This document shows positions 12,652-58,533 of a stretch of 64,000 bases of DNA, piece after piece (within the stretch, counting starts at the first letter, position 1; each line of letters begins with the position of its first letter). The notes below the pieces were generated by a model, which was not told the origin of the DNA, did no database searches, and saw nothing but the letters and a program-made list of their open reading frames with translations. Location: the NCBI GenBank assembly GCA_965113315.1, contig OZ220370.1. The stretch is one strand, 5' to 3'. Origin of the DNA: Podarcis vaucheri (lineage: Eukaryota). The translations under genes and the position numbers were made by a program.

Positions 12652-15114
12652 TTTTTTTTTATAAAATTTTTATTAGTTTTACAAAAGTTTTTATAACAAA
12701 CAAACATAAAAGAAAAACAAACAAACAAACAAATATAATTTCAAAATATCCTTTCATAGACTTCTTTCCTTGGACTTCCCCATACCTCCCCTTTCTGCAT
12801 CCTCATGTCCAAATTTTATAGCAACTTATAAATGTTCTTTCCCATCCTAATTCATCATAGTCCTTTCTTAATCTAATCTTATATTACTGCAACCCTTTCT
12901 CTCTGTAAAATCTCGACATTCTAAGCTTCATCAAGTTTATAATAGTTCTTAAGATAAATCTTGAATTTCTTCCAGTCTTCTTCCGCAGTCTCCTTTCCCT
13001 GGTCACGAATTCTGCTCGTCATTTCCGCCAATGTCATATAGTCAATCACTTTCATCTGCCATTCTTCCAAGGTGGGTAAATCTTGTGTCTTCCAATACTT
13101 TGCGATCAGTATTCTTGCTGCTGTTGTTGCATACATGAAAAAAGTTCTATCCTTTTTTGGCACCAATTGGCCGACAATGCCCAAGAGAAAGGCCTCTGGT
13201 TTCTTAAGGAAGGTATATTTAAATACCTTTTTCATTTCATTATATATCATCTCCCAGAAAGCCTTAATCTTCGGGCATGTCCACCAAAGATGATAAAAAG
13301 TACCTTCAGTTTCCTTACATTTCCAACATTTGTTATCAGGCAAATGGTAAATTTTTGCTAGCTTAACTGGGGTCATGTACCACCTATAGACCATTTTCAT
13401 AACATTTTCCTTTAAAGCACTACATGCCGTAAATTTAATACCAGTGTTCCACAACCTTTCCCAGTCAGCAGACATAATATTATGACCAATATCCTGTGCC
13501 CACTTAATCATAACTGATTTAACTGTTTCATCTTGTGTATTCCATTTCAACAGCAAGTTATACATTCTTGACAAGTTCTTAGTATTGGGTTCTAACAGTT
13601 CTGTCTCAAGTTTTGATTTTTCCACCTGGAAGCCAATTTTCCTGTCTTGTTTGAAAACCTCCATTATTTGATAGTAGTGGAGCCAATCTTGTACTTTTGG
13701 TTTTAGTTTTTCATGGCTCTTTAATTTCAATTTCTCTCCATCCTGTTCTAAGATCTCACAATACTTTGGCCATCCGTCCTCCATATTAACTTTCTTGTGG
13801 GCCTTAGCCTCTAAGGGTGACAACCATCTAGGGGTTTTGTTTTCCAACAGATCTTTATATCTCATCCAAACATTGAACAGCGCTTTCCTTACAATATGAT
13901 TTTTAAAGGCACTATGCACTTTGATTTTGTCATACCATAGATATGCATGCCAGCCAAATGCATTATTGAAACCTTCTAAGTCCAAGATATCTGTATTCTC
14001 GAGGAGCATCCACTCTTTCAGCCAGCAGAATGCTGCTGCTTCATAGTACAATTTTAAGTCCGGCAGGGCAAATCCCCCTCTTTCTTTTGCATCTGTTAAT
14101 ATTTTATATTTTATTCTGGGCTTTTTGCCCTGCCAGACAAATTTCGCAATATCTTTCTGCCACCTCTTGAAACAGTCCATCTTGTCAATAATCTGCAAAG
14201 TTTGAAATAAAAACAACATTCTTGGCAATACATTCATCTTAATCACTGCAATTCGGCCTAACATTGACAATCTCAAATTTGACCATATTTCTAGATCTTT
14301 TTTAATTTCTGACCAGCATTTTTCATAATTATCCTTATACAGATTCAAATTTTTAGATGTTAAATTAACCCCTAGATATTTCACCTTCTTAACCACCGTC
14401 AGACCTGTCTCTTCTTGAAACTTATTCTTTTCCATATCTGTTAGGTTTTTCCCTAAGACTTTAGTTTTTTGTTTATTCAATTTAAATCCGGCTACCTGCC
14501 CAAATTGTTGGATTATTTCCAACACTCTTTTTGTACTAGTGTTTGGCTCCTGCAAAGTCAATACAAGGTCATCTGCGAACGCTCTTAACTTATAGTGTTT
14601 AGTTCCGACCTGTACACCTTTAACTTGCTGGTCATCTCTAATCATGTTCAGCAACACCTCCAGGACCGAAATAAAAAGCAATGGGGAAATTGGGCACCCC
14701 TGTCGTGTTCCTTTTTCTATCTTAAGTTCCTCAGTTATTACATTGTTTACAATTAGCTTAGCTTTTTGTTCAGAATATATTGCACCCATACCATTCTCAA
14801 ATCCTTGTCCTACCCCCATCCCATGAAGATTCTTTTTCATAAAACCCCACGAAATATTGTCAAAGGCTTTCTCCGCATCCACAAATATCAAAACTGCTTT
14901 AGTATTTATATTCACCTCTAACTTTTCCAAAATGTCTATTATGTTCCTAACATTGTCTGAGAGGTGTCTTTTTGGGAGAAAGCCTGCTTGGTCTCTGTGA
15001 ATCTTCTCCATCAATACTCTTTTAAATCTTTTTGCTAAAATGTCTGCAAAAATTTTGTAATCCACATTCAATAATGAAATTGGGCGGTAGTTCTTCAATT
15101 GAGTCTTTTCAGTC
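12652..15114 (-). mobile_element. 5'-truncated L1-clade LINE inserted in the Gypsy 3' LTR
   Basis: Poly(A) tail (T-run 12650-12660), AATAAA, 13-bp TSD TCTACCAATGCTT at 12639-12651 and 15115-15127. Confidence 0.95.
12921..15114 (-). CDS. L1 ORF2p fragment: reverse transcriptase plus C-terminal CCHC region; endonuclease missing, no native start
   Basis: About 730 open codons with NYRPISLLNVDYKI, DAEKAFD, GTRQGCPISP, FADD, YLGV and CWKC..HLWWTC. The ORF-track start at 15122 lies in the TSD and is an artefact. Confidence 0.93.
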
Positions 15115-15185
15115 TCTACCAATGCTTATACGATTGGTTAGAACGCGCCTTGTAACATAAAATGACTTAAACCCAATACATAACA

Positions 15186-15198: not shown

Positions 15199-15499
15199 CT
15201 TCCTAACAAAAGGAACAAACATAGTCATCAAGGTGTGCCAGCCTTTTCCGCTCCTGCTGGGACCGTTGCGGTTCCTGTGCCCGAGTGGGTGACCCAGGAG
15301 GTTCCTCCAGTACCTGTGGTCTGAGTGGGGCGGTCAGGGAGGCTGGCTCCTAAGGGGTTACTTCCGATTGGGCCACTGAGGATTCCAGCCTGAAGTTGCA
15401 CTGCTGGGGTAACTCAGTCACTGGCAACCTGTCTGGTTCCCACCCTGGCATGGGCACAGAATCTCCCGAGGTACCCATTTCTCTGTCCTCTGGTTCCTC

Positions 15500-16276
15500 T
15501 TGAAGTTCTGTGTTTGGAGGTGCCCTGCTCTGATCTGGTTGAGGTGTCCCTTCCAAACCAGTCCCCCCTCCAATCCTACCTCATAGGAAACCGGACCTGT
15601 ACAGCGGGCAGTGATACCAGGGACCCAACCCTGTCTGGGCCCATAGTTTTGGACGTACACAGTGTCCCCCGGGGAGAACTCTCTTGGAACCCCCCCGCAC
15701 CACAGTGGATGGCCATTGCTCAAGAGCCCAGTCAGGGTGCATACGATCAAGAAGGGTAGTGAGCCTCCTCCCCATAAGCAACTCTGCCGGGCTCCGGCTG
15801 GTCACTGCGCTTTGGGTGATGTGTTAGGCCAATAAGAACTCCGCTAACCCGAGAGTCCAGTCTCCATGCACTATGCACCTAAGCGCATCTTTGGTAGTAT
15901 GGACCATGCGTTCAGCTTGGCCGTTAGTGGCCGGGTGAAAAGGAGCAGAACAAATGTGGCGGATTCCATTCTTGGTTACAAATTTTTTGAATTCTGCCAA
16001 AGTAAAAGCGGTCCCATTATCACTCACCAGTGTGTCTGGCAAGCCGTGTGTCTGCTCATCGAAAGAGCATGCCTCTGTGTCCCTGGGTGCCATCAGACCT
16101 TCCAGTAGAGTGATGGCGGAACTTCCCAGCACCATCAGTAGCACATCCACCTTGTCTGCCTCCCTAGTGAAGCCTTGTAGTTGAACGTAGCTCCTTATTT
16201 GGTGGAGCCACTGAGACCATTCTGCAGGATGGCTCATATCGAAGTCCGGTGGCGGCCGACTATAACTGGTGGCCAT
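15500..16276 (-). pseudogene. Gypsy gag N-terminus fused in frame to integrase core/C-terminus; premature stop at 15824-15826 and a later frameshift
   Basis: MATSYSRPPPDFD..AEWSQW..(gag-like) joined at ~16052 to THGLPDTLVSDNGTAF..SAPFHPATNGQAERMV (integrase D,E); same frame continues past TAA as SPAELLMGRRL, then FSPGDTVYV..WVPG..TGPVSYEV..HLNQIR in another frame. Confidence 0.88.
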
Positions 16277-16458
16277 CCTCGGACCTGGAGCAGTCGCTTG
16301 TGCGATTGTGGGTGGTTGCGAAGACACGGCAGGTGCAGTCTCGTTTCTGGGACTATTTGCTAAGTCCAGCGTGGTGGTGAGATCGCGTTTACTGCGAGGC
16401 GGGAGGCGGTGGTGCTGCAGTGCGGTCTTGGGCCTCTGGCAGCCGGTGGGAGCTCCTC

Positions 16459-30374: not shown

Positions 30375-30452
30375 GGGAAGGGCTCTAGCTCAGTGGTGGA
30401 GCTTCTGCGTTGCAAACAGAAGGTGCCAGGTTCAATCCCTGGCATCTTCAGG
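30375..30452 (+). mobile_element. tRNA(Ala-like)-derived SINE head
   Basis: A box TAGCTCAGTGG, TGC in the anticodon position, B box GGTTCAATCCC; broken stems. Related pieces at ~31100-31197 (+) and ~63490-63657 (-). Confidence 0.65.
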
Positions 30453-54300: not shown

Positions 54301-54384
54301 TTTATTGATTGGAAAACAAAAAGAAACAACTCCTAGGAGTGCTTGATTTATAACATAGAACACAACTATGTTATAATATCTTGG

Positions 54385-55218
54385 TGGTCATAACATCATG
54401 TTTGCTGACTGGGAACAGTTGTGGACCTTCGGTATGAAATTTACGGCATGTAATGCCTTAAAGGAAAATATTATGAAAATGATTTATAGGTGGTACATGA
54501 CTCCAGTCAAGCTTGCAAAAATCTATCATTTGCCTGACAATAATTGTTGGAAATGTAAAGAAACTGAAGGTACTTTCTTTCACCTTTGGTGGACGTGCCC
54601 GAAGATTAAGGCTTTCTGGGAAATGATATATAATGAAATGAAAAAGGTACTTAAATGTACCTTCCCTAAGAAACCAGAGGCCTTTCTCTTGGGCATTGTC
54701 GGCCAATTGGTGCCAAAGAAAGATAGAACATTCTTTATGTATGCTACAACAGCAGCAAGAATACTCATCGCAAAGTATTGGAAGACACAAGATCTACCCA
54801 CTCTGGAAGAATGGCAGATGAAGGTGATAGACTATATGGGACTGGCTGAAATGACTGGCAGAATCCGAGACCAGGGGAAAGAGACGGCGGAAGAAGATTG
54901 GAAGAAATTTAAAATCTATCTTAAGAGACATTGTAAAATTAATGAGTGTTAAAATGTTGTGGTTATAGAAAATAAGCGGACTACAGCTGTAAAGATTAAG
55001 TTAAAAGAAAAGAAAGGATTACAACTAGATAAAATTAAGGGTGAGGATTTGCTGAATTAAATATTTGAAATTGGAATGCAGAAAGGGGAGGTATGAGGAG
55101 TGGGGGAAGTAAGTTTTAAGAAAATAAGGATTTGAAATTATACTTGTTTGTTTTTGTGTGTATTTGTTTATGTTTATATAATTTGTGAAAACTCAATAAA
55201 TATTATTTTTTAAAAAAA
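54385..55218 (+). mobile_element. 5'-truncated L1, same family as the 12652 copy (ORF2 C-terminus 54398-54952)
   Basis: Near-identical protein (YRWYMTPVKLAKIYH..CWKC..HLWWTC), AATAAA plus A tail, 13-bp TSD TATAATATCTTGG at 54372-54384 and 55219-55231. Confidence 0.95.
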
Positions 55219-56452: not shown

Positions 56453-57111
56453 TGTCAGGGCTGGAGTCAGATGCAGGTCAGCAAGCAAGAAGCAGCGTTT
56501 GTCAGAGAAGTTAACTCTTTATTCAAAGAAATGGCTTACAACTCAAGAAATGGCTTACAACTCAGCGAGGCTTCTCAGTAAGTCTTGCCGCTATAGAGCA
56601 GTTGCCAGGACTGATGGCCCTTGCCATCGACCTTCTCTGCCCAAGCAGTCTCAAACTTCGTATGGGCATTTCTAATCTCTGTTCTGCTCTACACATCACT
56701 GTGTGTCCTTGGGAGACCAGCGGGGAGGCGAGCTTGTCACAATAGGAGAGGCAGATTCCCTGCAGCCTCTTTTGCAGCCTCTTGCCCCTCCTCCTCTGCT
56801 TCAGCCTCTGAGTCGGAACTGCTCCCTGTCACAGGCTCTCCCTGTTCACTAAATCCTGTTGCCCCTTTAGCACATAGCTGTCAACGTTTTCCTTTTTTTA
56901 AGGGAAATTCCCTTATTCCGAATAGGATTCCTCGCAAGAAAAGGGAAAAGTTGACAGCTGTGCTTTAGCATTCATCCCTTCCTCCCACTCTTCTCCCTCT
57001 GACTTCTCCTCAGTACCCCACCACCAATCCCCTGGCTCTGAGCCTTCCTCTGCTGGGGGTTCCCTAGCTGTTGCCTCTCACCGCTCCTCATCATCCAGCC
57101 AGTCCCTGACA
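56453..57111 (-). mobile_element. Solo LTR (probably Gypsy) containing a degenerate acidic reading frame
   Basis: 8-bp terminal inverted repeat TGTCAGGG...CCCTGACA, AATAAA on the minus strand (~56520), 19-bp tandem duplication AAGAAATGGCTTACAACTC; TSD not resolved. Confidence 0.75.
56873..56962. mobile_element. 90-bp hAT-type MITE nested in the solo LTR
   Basis: TIR CATAGCTGTCAAC / GTTGACAGCTGTG; perfect 8-bp TSD CTTTAGCA at 56865-56872 and 56963-56970. Confidence 0.92.
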
Positions 57112-58533
57112 TCAGATTAACCCTTTCTTCCCTACCCAATTTTCTTAAATGAGATTATAGTTGTTTAACCAGCCCGGCAGTCATGTTTTCTAGTCTGTAA
57201 GAAGCAAGGTCTAAAAGAACTAGAATCTCATTTCAAAAAATGAGTCCGGGAGGAGGGGGTTGAACCCCCTCCCTGCTCACTGTGGTCCTGGTCTGGGCTA
57301 GGGCCCACATTGCCTGCTTTCTCTATATTCCCAGAAAGAAGATACTTGGTAATACTTGGTGTGGGTTGTTGTTTTGGTAAAGTGTCCTGAATGTAATGTG
57401 TAGTTTGCCCCTAAGCAACAGCATTGGTGTCAGAGAACTAGCCTGAAAAGACCAGGGCAAGGCTGAAAGCAGACAAAGCTGTTGTTTGTGGGTGCATACA
57501 GCAAATCAATCAATCAATCACTATGGGTAACTGGACTGAACAAAATTAACCTGCCAGGGTTAATTGATGGGGTGAATATAATTATGGATGAAAGGTAAAC
57601 ACCTTTGACTTGTCAGTTTTGGCAGTCTTACACCTGTAATTGCAAGGTTTTTTTCTATTTTTATAAAACCCTCTTTCCAATTTTGCTCAAGGTGTCAGTC
57701 ATAACTCTCTGCCCTTTTTGATCACCACTCAGCTTGCAGCCCACTTTGCATTTGTCAACTCCAGCTGTTTTCTTTTAGATACATGAAATTTGTGTGTGTT
57801 TTAAGAATCTCTATCCACTGCCAAGGATAGTTCTCTAGATGAGCAAGAATTGTTGTTGTTTCTTCCAAACAGATGAGACCAATGATATTAAGAGCAAGGA
57901 AGCATTGAAGATCTTTCACGGCATTAATGTTTGGATTTTTTTAGTTCTTTGCTAAGGGATTGTCAAGCACAACAGAACTCTTCCACTATTTTGAGATGTC
58001 ATTGTGAGCATTTAAGTGCTTGCTCAGATGACCCTGGTGAGTTCATCATTCAGGTTCATCAGCAAAGCTGAAGCTGAAAAACAAATTGCACTTCCTCTTC
58101 CACCCAAAAAATGCTTCCTAAGAAGCACATTTCCTCCTTTCTTATTCACAGACAGAAATCATGTTCAGTGAAGTTATACTAGACTTGTCCTCTGCCTTGT
58201 TTCCTTTAACATTCTAAGGATGCTACCAGACTGGGGTTTTCCTGGTTATCAGGAATGCCAAGACATGCAAATAAACAATTTCTAAATATTTGCCCATTTT
58301 GGTGCTTTTCAGCACTCTCTGTATGAACATTCACTTATGCTCCTTCCCAGTGATGCCATCCTGTGGTCAGATCTGATTGGTTGTGCCAAGACCTCTAAAT
58401 TTATTTACTAAAGTCAAGTGATGCTTTCCTATTGTCTTGCTGTCCTATTGTGATGTTGTTCTGTTAGCTGTGTGACCCCTAGTTGGGTAGGAGATCTTGC
58501 TGTCACTAGCTGGGGGAAGGAGGAACTAACCCT

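What the first reader, a model, noticed from the sequence alone, without database searches (positions are those of the whole stretch)
56453..57111. Solo LTR carrying a degenerate acidic, Trp-rich reading frame: candidate LTR(U3)-encoded accessory protein
Seen: with the 90-bp MITE and one TSD removed, the minus strand reads from the second base of the LTR as VRDWLDDEER*EATAREPPAEEGSEPGDWWWGTEEKSEGEEWEEGMNAKGATGFSEQGEPVTGSSSDSEAEAEEEGQEAAKEAAG, about 85 codons with one stop (TGA, plausibly from TGG). Frameshifted pieces ESASPIVTSSPPRWSP and RAEQRLEMPIRSLRLLGQRR follow. The frame is restored exactly across the MITE. Known: some retroviruses encode proteins overlapping U3 (MMTV Sag, lentiviral Nef), but I know of no characterised equivalent for vertebrate Gypsy LTRs. 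Inference: there is no ATG at the LTR start, so the ORF probably begins in the internal region and runs through the PPT into U3. Its acidic-aromatic composition resembles a transactivation domain, with an SP-rich basic tail resembling an NLS.
Basis: partly seen in the sequence, partly recalled or inferred. Interest (0 to 1): 0.7.

Follow-up and report, generated by a model that had tools for sequence, protein, structure and literature searches.

The report
Retrotransposon integrase tail inside lizard LTR
This is a dead end-repeat of an old lizard jumping gene; its acidic reading frame is likely not a separate gene but the tail of the integrase, which in younger relatives runs on into the end-repeat, is kept by selection, and ends in a short motif that may grip nucleosomes.

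Summary
The element (56453-57111, minus strand) is a decayed, probably solo LTR of an old Gypsy family in a lizard genome. A young 90-bp MITE interrupts it. In this copy alone the frame is no longer than chance (shuffle P=0.43). Across 43 copies it is real: it is the only one of six frames with no shared stop, and it ends at a shared stop after about 135 codons. It is likely the C-terminal tail of Pol, not an accessory gene. A sister-subfamily LTR sits directly behind integrase, chromodomain and PPT. Young intact chromoviruses of the same genome read gag-pol 110-118 codons into the 3' LTR from the same base. Their tail is under purifying selection (pN/pS 0.22-0.43) and ends in RRSARL, the core of the HMGN nucleosome-binding motif. 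An unalignable Anolis tail ends in RRSARI, and this family reads RRSLRL or decayed forms. Pol running into the 3' LTR is known in plant chromoviruses; I found no report for vertebrates in nine searches. Nucleosome binding is untested, and many young copies lose the tail by a G-run slip. The scan's earlier notes show no look-alike.

The parts
56453..57111 (-). LTR of an old chromovirus (Gypsy) family, probably solo; sense is the minus strand
   Evidence: TG..CA ends with a short inverted repeat; dispersed copies; 5-bp target duplications in 22 of 31 copies
56963..57110 (-). First piece of the frame, from LTR base 2: acidic and Trp-rich, premature stop at 57080-57078, 12-base in-frame gap near 57060
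   Evidence: matches a sister-subfamily copy at 67-68% identity, E 1e-11 to 1e-13 in a five-sequence comparison
56873..56962 (.). Young 90-bp MITE with terminal inverted repeats and 8-bp target duplication (hAT-like by duplication length; family label recalled)
   Evidence: 40 of 674 candidates scored, all 98-100% identical; 7-8 of 8 duplication match in 11 of 12 loci
56767..56864 (-). Second piece of the frame: acidic linker, broken by a frameshift near 56767
56716..56764 (-). Ser/Pro-rich piece; further frameshifts near 56714 and 56704
56640..56702 (-). Basic end of the frame with the R-S-L-R-L motif (56663-56646 reads IRSLRL); a 24-base gap near 56639 has removed the family's stop
56591..56596 (-). 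TATA-like box (inferred U3 promoter)
   Evidence: sequence; a similar box in 14 of 22 full-length copies
56526..56563 (.). Exact 19-bp tandem duplication, seen only in this copy among those compared
56518..56523 (-). AATAAA poly(A) signal, 65 bases before the LTR end
   Evidence: sequence; exact in 10 of 22 copies; Sushi-clade LTRs have it close to the 3' end (PMC3601003 passage)

Best explanation
The stretch is a dead LTR of an old lizard chromovirus (Ty3/Gypsy) lineage, and its acidic frame is likely the fossil of the C-terminal tail of the element's Pol/integrase. In the active element the gag-pol frame would have run through the chromodomain and the PPT into U3 of the 3' LTR from LTR base 2, adding about 135 residues: an acidic, likely disordered linker, a Ser/Pro stretch and a basic end with an RRSxRL-type motif. 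Reverse transcription copies U3 into both LTRs, so every solo LTR carries the frame without a start codon and cannot make the protein. Shown: the frame at family level, the chromodomain-PPT-LTR junction in the sister subfamily, and read-through plus purifying selection in a younger family. Inferred: read-through in this exact subfamily. Most likely job of the tail (about 0.35, untested): a second chromatin contact for the integration complex, the arginine motif docking on the H2A-H2B acidic patch as HMGN does while the chromodomain reads a histone tail.
For: Family frame: 0 of 128 codon positions carry a stop in over half of 43 copies (largest share 15%), against 1-6 such positions in each of the five other frames; end stop in 32 of 38. 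Junction: L117, whose LTR is 73-76% identical to family copies over its first 130-170 bases and belongs to a subfamily alignable over the whole frame, has integrase, chromodomain and PPT directly upstream. Pfam Chromo E 1.7e-10 for a related junction. L117 groups with eight such junction copies at 100/99; 7 of 15 decayed junctions are in frame. Young relatives: single ORFs of 1553 and 1558 aa with gag, PR, RT, RH, IN, SH3 and Chromo end 331 bases inside the 3' LTR; LTR pairs 98.5-99.7% identical. Their LTR frame is open for at least 109 codons in 39 of 39 loci. Between three subfamilies pN/pS is 0.40, 0.22, 0.43 in frame against 1.1-2.6 in shifted frames, with only in-frame indels; Fisher p 0.035, 7e-5, 0.009; third-position changes 11 of 19, 19 of 26, 20 of 36. 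Motif: RRSxR[LI] 5 times in 6,063 post-chromodomain residues, all within 20 residues of the C-end, and 0 times in 113,156 upstream residues of 96 proteins. HMGN and Dsup bind the acidic patch through RRSARLSA and RRSSR (PMC12487698 passages).
Against: No junction or full-length copy of the window's exact subfamily was found. L117 itself is one base out of frame, and 8 of 15 decayed junctions are off or unclear. dN/dS among the decayed copies is uninformative: 0.63-0.66 in frame but 0.59-1.0 in control frames; between-clade excess P=0.19. Indels of 3n are 38 of 99 in the frame against 13 of 44 after the stop. Two antisense frames have almost as few stop cells (1.3-1.4% against 1.1%). The tails of the three lizard lineages do not align with each other (E 0.08 or more), so the young family is an analogue or distant homologue, not proof. 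In 19 of 20 young copies picked for a short match, a slip in the G runs just before the LTR cuts the tail off. The related VRDWAEE/VRDWTEE group shows no clear RRSxRL in 11 decayed copies. Only 5 of 35 ungapped family copies read RRSLRL exactly, and it departs from the HMGN core. The motif count is biased, because the search was seeded with a tail, and the 5 hits are 4 families.
Confidence: 0.85

Rival explanations
1. The tail is real Pol sequence but works only as an acidic spacer plus nuclear localisation or DNA-binding basic patch, or is kept open merely because a stop would be mildly harmful; the HMGN likeness is incidental. This rivals the function, not the origin.
For: Tail sequences turn over completely between lineages; many young copies lose the tail by a G-run slip; fish relatives have only a short extension; one related group lacks the clear motif.
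Against: Amino-acid-level constraint in the young tail; the same motif at the far end of unalignable tails in Anolis, a frog and a fungus.
Confidence: 0.5
2. A separate U3-encoded accessory protein (Sag-, Nef- or Bel-like), started by its own ATG in the internal region or reached by splicing, acting as a transactivator.
For: Acidic and Trp-rich composition; Trp-rich motifs are kept between subfamilies; an earlier unchecked note describes extra genes near the 3' LTR of fungal Gypsy elements. In the young family an ATG lies at LTR bases 5-7 and could in principle allow re-initiation in slipped copies.
Against: The chromodomain ends about 15 codons before the LTR in every junction seen; 21 of 22 family copies have no ATG in the first ten codons; intact relatives show one continuous ORF.
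Confidence: 0.07
3. The frame is a by-product of GA-rich U3 promoter sequence and never coded.
For: Single-copy shuffle P=0.43; dN/dS in decayed copies inconclusive; no protein homologue found.
Against: Only frame without shared stops and with a shared end stop; in-frame pN/pS lowest in 8 of 11 non-independent sister-versus-main pairs; two natural sister copies are open for 128 and more than 130 codons; same start base and layout as the selected tail of intact relatives.
Confidence: 0.07

Closest known systems
Plant CRM group A centromeric chromoviruses, CR motif / putative targeting domain (PMC3059260; PMC3605345, passages read)
   Same: Chromovirus gag-pol ORF extends into the 3' LTR, and the LTR-encoded integrase end is thought to target chromatin.
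   Different: In CRM the CR motif stands in place of the chromodomain. Here an intact chromodomain lies upstream of the PPT and the LTR adds a second, long acidic tail. No sequence comparison with the CR motif was made.
Reina-clade Bingo1-4 and 7 of sugar beet (PMC3605345, passages read)
   Same: Chromodomain upstream of the PPT with the ORF extending into the LTR.
   Different: The passages read give no length, selection or motif for that extension; plant lineage.
Sushi / Tf1-group vertebrate chromoviruses (UniRef 'Gypsy retrotransposon integrase-like' proteins of Podarcis muralis and Anolis carolinensis)
   Same: Same domain order, DUF4939 gag and 5-bp duplications; self-priming-type primer site in the young family. 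P0004, P0007 and P0008 already contain such tails, unannotated.
   Different: The window lineage's tail has no database homologue; fish members mostly end within about 20-30 codons of the PPT.
HMGN / Dsup / Dot5 nucleosome-binding motif; foamy virus Gag CBS and LANA arginine anchors (PMC12487698, PMC13347269, PMC9040877, passages read)
   Same: Short RRSxRL-type arginine motif in a low-complexity protein end; viral precedent for tethering to the acidic patch.
   Different: The match is exact for six residues only in the young family and RRSLRL-like in the window family; binding untested; the review passages name no retrotransposon integrase.
MMTV Sag, lentiviral Nef (recalled, no call)
   Same: Coding sequence overlapping U3.
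   Different: Those are separate genes with their own mRNAs; here the frame is likely the end of Pol.

Membership tests
LTR retrotransposon solo LTR | TG..CA ends, dispersed copies with short target duplication | tested here: met
   22 of 31 copies with 4-5 of 5 matching bases; the window copy itself 1 of 5
LTR retrotransposon solo LTR | Promoter box and poly(A) signal in U3-R-U5 order | tested here: met
   TATA-like box in 14 of 22 and exact AATAAA in 10 of 22 copies; no RNA ends mapped
Chromovirus (Ty3/Gypsy) | Integrase with C-terminal chromodomain upstream of the 3' LTR | tested here: met
   Met for the sister subfamily (L117) and related junctions; no junction of the exact subfamily found
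Chromovirus (Ty3/Gypsy) | RT phylogeny and PR-RT-RH-IN order | tested here: inconclusive
   Order shown for the young family and RH-IN-chromodomain for one related locus (L178); no RT of the window's lineage found; the tree used the integrase end only
Tf1/Sushi self-priming group | Primer site complementary to the transcript start | tested here: inconclusive
   10-base complement in 4 of 4 young elements; none among 46 LTR ends scanned, so no 5' junction of the window family was available
CRM group A | CR motif replacing the chromodomain; tRNA-Met primer site; centromeric location | tested here: not met
   Canonical chromodomain upstream of the PPT; copies dispersed along contigs
U3-encoded accessory gene (Sag/Nef type) | Own start codon or spliced mRNA, separate from pol | tested here: not met
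   No ATG in the first ten codons in 21 of 22 copies; continuous with pol in relatives; splicing not testable for this lineage
HMGN-like nucleosome binders | RRSARL-type core | tested here: inconclusive
   RRSxRL or RRSxHL in 37 of 39 young loci; RRSLRL in 5 of 35 ungapped window-family copies, others mostly with C or H at the second place
HMGN-like nucleosome binders | Acidic-patch-dependent nucleosome binding | not testable with these tools
   needs a binding assay

The most novel reading that the evidence does not exclude
Squamate chromovirus integrases are two-handed nucleosome readers: a chromodomain followed by a long acidic linker and an HMGN-type acidic-patch anchor encoded inside U3, kept or re-invented in lineages whose tails no longer align. 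A slippery G run beside the PPT may switch copies between tailed and tail-less integrase.
Probability: 0.3. Interest if true: 0.7.

Novelty: new variant of a known kind. Interest (0 to 1): 0.45.

Why it matters
It explains why a whole class of lizard solo LTRs carries a start-less acidic frame, which can be mistaken for an accessory gene. It shows promoter DNA (U3) that is also under protein-level selection in a vertebrate Gypsy element, a layout described for plant centromeric elements. If the terminal motif binds the acidic patch, retrotransposon integrases join HMGN, Dsup, Dot5 and foamy Gag as users of that site, and how vertebrate chromoviruses choose integration sites becomes testable with a short peptide. 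The window copy itself is dead and likely has no function.

Tried and rejected
Protein searches with natural open tail copies found nothing: 27 candidates, none at E<=0.001; longer proteins, 1955 candidates, none at E<=0.1; 1.84 billion representatives, 0 hits; Pfam, 0 families; ESM Atlas best score 0.78, unrelated. Two same-strand LTRs 30 kb apart on C10 proved to be separate, with no pol between them. Junction patterns for the exact subfamily gave only L117. A DNA-transposon reading was rejected on the poly(A) signal, the short inverted ends and the pol junctions. dN/dS and indel bias among decayed copies were inconclusive; the script stopped at the last of 12 pairs. Sequencing runs: no RNA holder listed. 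The four runs laid do not cover the unique flanks of the window and so seem to be from a related species; they say nothing on expression of this LTR and showed no G-run indel row. A related young family has low, mostly one-strand RNA reads over its LTR in one run, mostly partial matches. Complex prediction of the young tail's last 40 residues with the genome's H2A and H2B gave no verdict (score 0.02). Earlier scan notes: no look-alike by sequence or place.

Full report
Observation. The stretch 56453-57111 has TGTCAGGG and CCCTGACA ends. A 90-bp MITE at 56873-56962 carries an 8-bp target duplication. The MITE is young: the 40 of 674 candidates scored are 98-100% identical, and 11 of 12 loci show a 7-8 of 8 duplication. 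Compared with five natural copies, the window copy is further broken near 56767, 56714, 56704 and 56639. Its own 5-bp flanks match at 1 of 5. No partner LTR or matching pol lies in the window or 20 kb beyond its end. On its own the frame is not surprising: 43% of 5000 dinucleotide shuffles give one stop or fewer.

The family. The genome (1.6 Gb, lizard-like by the named protein hits) holds at least 150 copies: 150 of 6646 candidates were scored and all matched. Of 31 copies with both ends located, 22 have 4-5 of 5 matching flank bases. Pairwise K2P distance among 43 copies has median 0.26, so the family is old. A TATA-like box and an AATAAA near the 3' end fix the sense as the minus strand. 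I aligned 43 distinct natural copies: 100 loci had hits, 53 covered the frame in one piece, 43 remained after removing duplicates; the window copy is not among them. The frame from LTR base 2 has no position where most copies stop (largest share 15% over 128 codons). Each of the other five frames has 1-6 such positions, and 32 of 38 copies share a stop at the end. Two antisense frames have nearly as few stop cells overall. dN/dS and indel lengths among these decayed copies do not separate the frame from controls. Between the main and a sister subfamily the in-frame ratio was lowest in 8 of 11 non-independent pairs.

What lies upstream. A search for a G-rich tract before the LTR start found copies of related LTR groups preceded by a chromodomain (Pfam Chromo E 1.7e-10). 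One of them, L117, belongs to a sister subfamily that aligns with the window family over the whole frame, down to the same last residues. It has integrase, chromodomain and PPT directly upstream, one base out of phase. Of 15 decayed junctions, 7 are in frame, 7 are one base off with nearly the same spacing and one is unclear; three come from one tandem array. In a tree of the integrase end, L117 and eight of these form one clade (100/99). Their grouping with the young and Anolis families is weak (80/75). No junction of the exact subfamily was found.

Young relatives show the intact layout. L170 and L172 are full-length elements with LTR pairs 98.6% and 99.7% identical and one ORF of 1553 or 1558 codons (gag, protease, RT, RNase H, integrase, SH3, chromodomain). 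The ORF ends 331 bases inside the 3' LTR and enters it at base 2. The LTR part is acidic, then Ser/Pro-rich, then basic with RRSARL. It is open for at least 109 codons in 39 of 39 loci parsed. Between three subfamilies it shows pN/pS of 0.22-0.43 against 1.1-2.6 in shifted frames, in-frame indels only, and an excess of third-position changes. Against a strict need for the tail: 19 of 20 copies picked for a short match lose it by slips in the G runs before the LTR, while 18 of 20 picked for a long match keep it. The slips go both ways and recur in each subfamily. That points to homopolymer slippage or assembly error rather than a tail-less lineage, but this is not settled.

Other species. Of 120 listed homologues, 96 could be parsed. 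Podarcis and Anolis proteins have 95-115-residue acidic tails ending in RRSARL and RRSARI, a frog protein ends in RRSPRL, and most fish and fungal proteins end soon after the chromodomain. The motif occurs 5 times after the chromodomain, always within 20 residues of the end, and never upstream. The search was seeded with a tail, and the hits are four families. The three lizard tails do not align with each other. In the window family 5 of 35 ungapped copies read RRSLRL, and most others have C or H in second place, as CpG decay of an arginine codon would give. The related VRDWAEE group shows no clear motif.

Mechanism. Shown: the family frame, junctions in the sister subfamily and related groups, and read-through with selection in the young family. 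Inferred: the same read-through for this subfamily. From established retroelement biology, U3 of the 3' LTR is copied to both ends, and recombination leaves solo LTRs with a start-less frame. For function I commit to chromatin tethering as the single most likely specific role (about 0.35). HMGN, Dsup and Dot5 bind the H2A-H2B acidic patch through this motif type, and foamy Gag uses an arginine anchor that affects integration sites (passages of PMC12487698, PMC13347269, PMC9040877). A plain spacer or import signal remains about as likely.

What is known. The ORF extends into the 3' LTR in plant CRM group A and some Reina elements (passages of PMC3059260 and PMC3605345). Nine literature searches (listings seen, seven papers read as passages, no supplements) showed no report of a long LTR-encoded Pol tail or an HMGN-like motif in vertebrate chromoviruses. 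The classic chromovirus surveys and Repbase entries (recalled) did not appear in these listings and may mention it.

Verdict. A real but fossil coding frame, likely the Pol tail of a chromovirus rather than an accessory gene. It is a new variant of a known layout with a cheap, testable lead. Interest 0.45.

Noticed in passing
L179-L198 (young chromovirus copies), about 25 bases upstream of the 3' LTR: A G8 run is one base longer or shorter in many young copies of more than one subfamily (17 of 35 compared, about half picked for this), cutting off the tail, while C6 runs in integrase never vary (0 of 35). In one-base-short copies the new stop overlaps an ATG at the LTR start. Assembly error or real slippage not settled.
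   Followed up: partly
L097, L105, L106, L114, L123, L124 (near ends of six contigs): A 99.5%-identical subtelomeric segment shared by six contigs carries the first bases of an LTR of this group.
   Followed up: no
G000:C41:30.0-37.5 Mb (L223, L226-L243): A sister-subfamily LTR sits in about 20 similar segments with variable C-run length; one copy is open for 128 codons. C41 also holds many young chromoviruses.
   Followed up: partly
G000:C26:16.0-16.7 Mb (L127-L138, L141): A tandem array with period 45-60 kb, each unit holding a truncated chromodomain-PPT-LTR junction.
   Followed up: partly
window 15418-16456 (-): Broken Gypsy-type integrase fragment (Pfam rve E 2.5e-6), 38% identical to the young chromovirus core; not linked to the LTR studied.
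   Followed up: partly
window 12921-15125 (-) and 54377-54952 (+): Two pieces of one LINE family in opposite orientation; the first has a 734-codon open RT frame.
   Followed up: no
window 30379-30449 (+): ARAGORN calls a tRNA-Ala(TGC); it may be a tRNA-derived SINE head.
   Followed up: no
L176:1414-5318: Three long open frames that look like a DIRS/Ngaro element (gag-like, RT-RH, tyrosine recombinase; labels from recalled motifs) beside a decayed chromovirus junction.
   Followed up: no
window 57119-57261: A 48-bp imperfect inverted repeat (75%) starts 8 bases upstream of the LTR and includes a purine-rich run that could be mistaken for a PPT.
   Followed up: no
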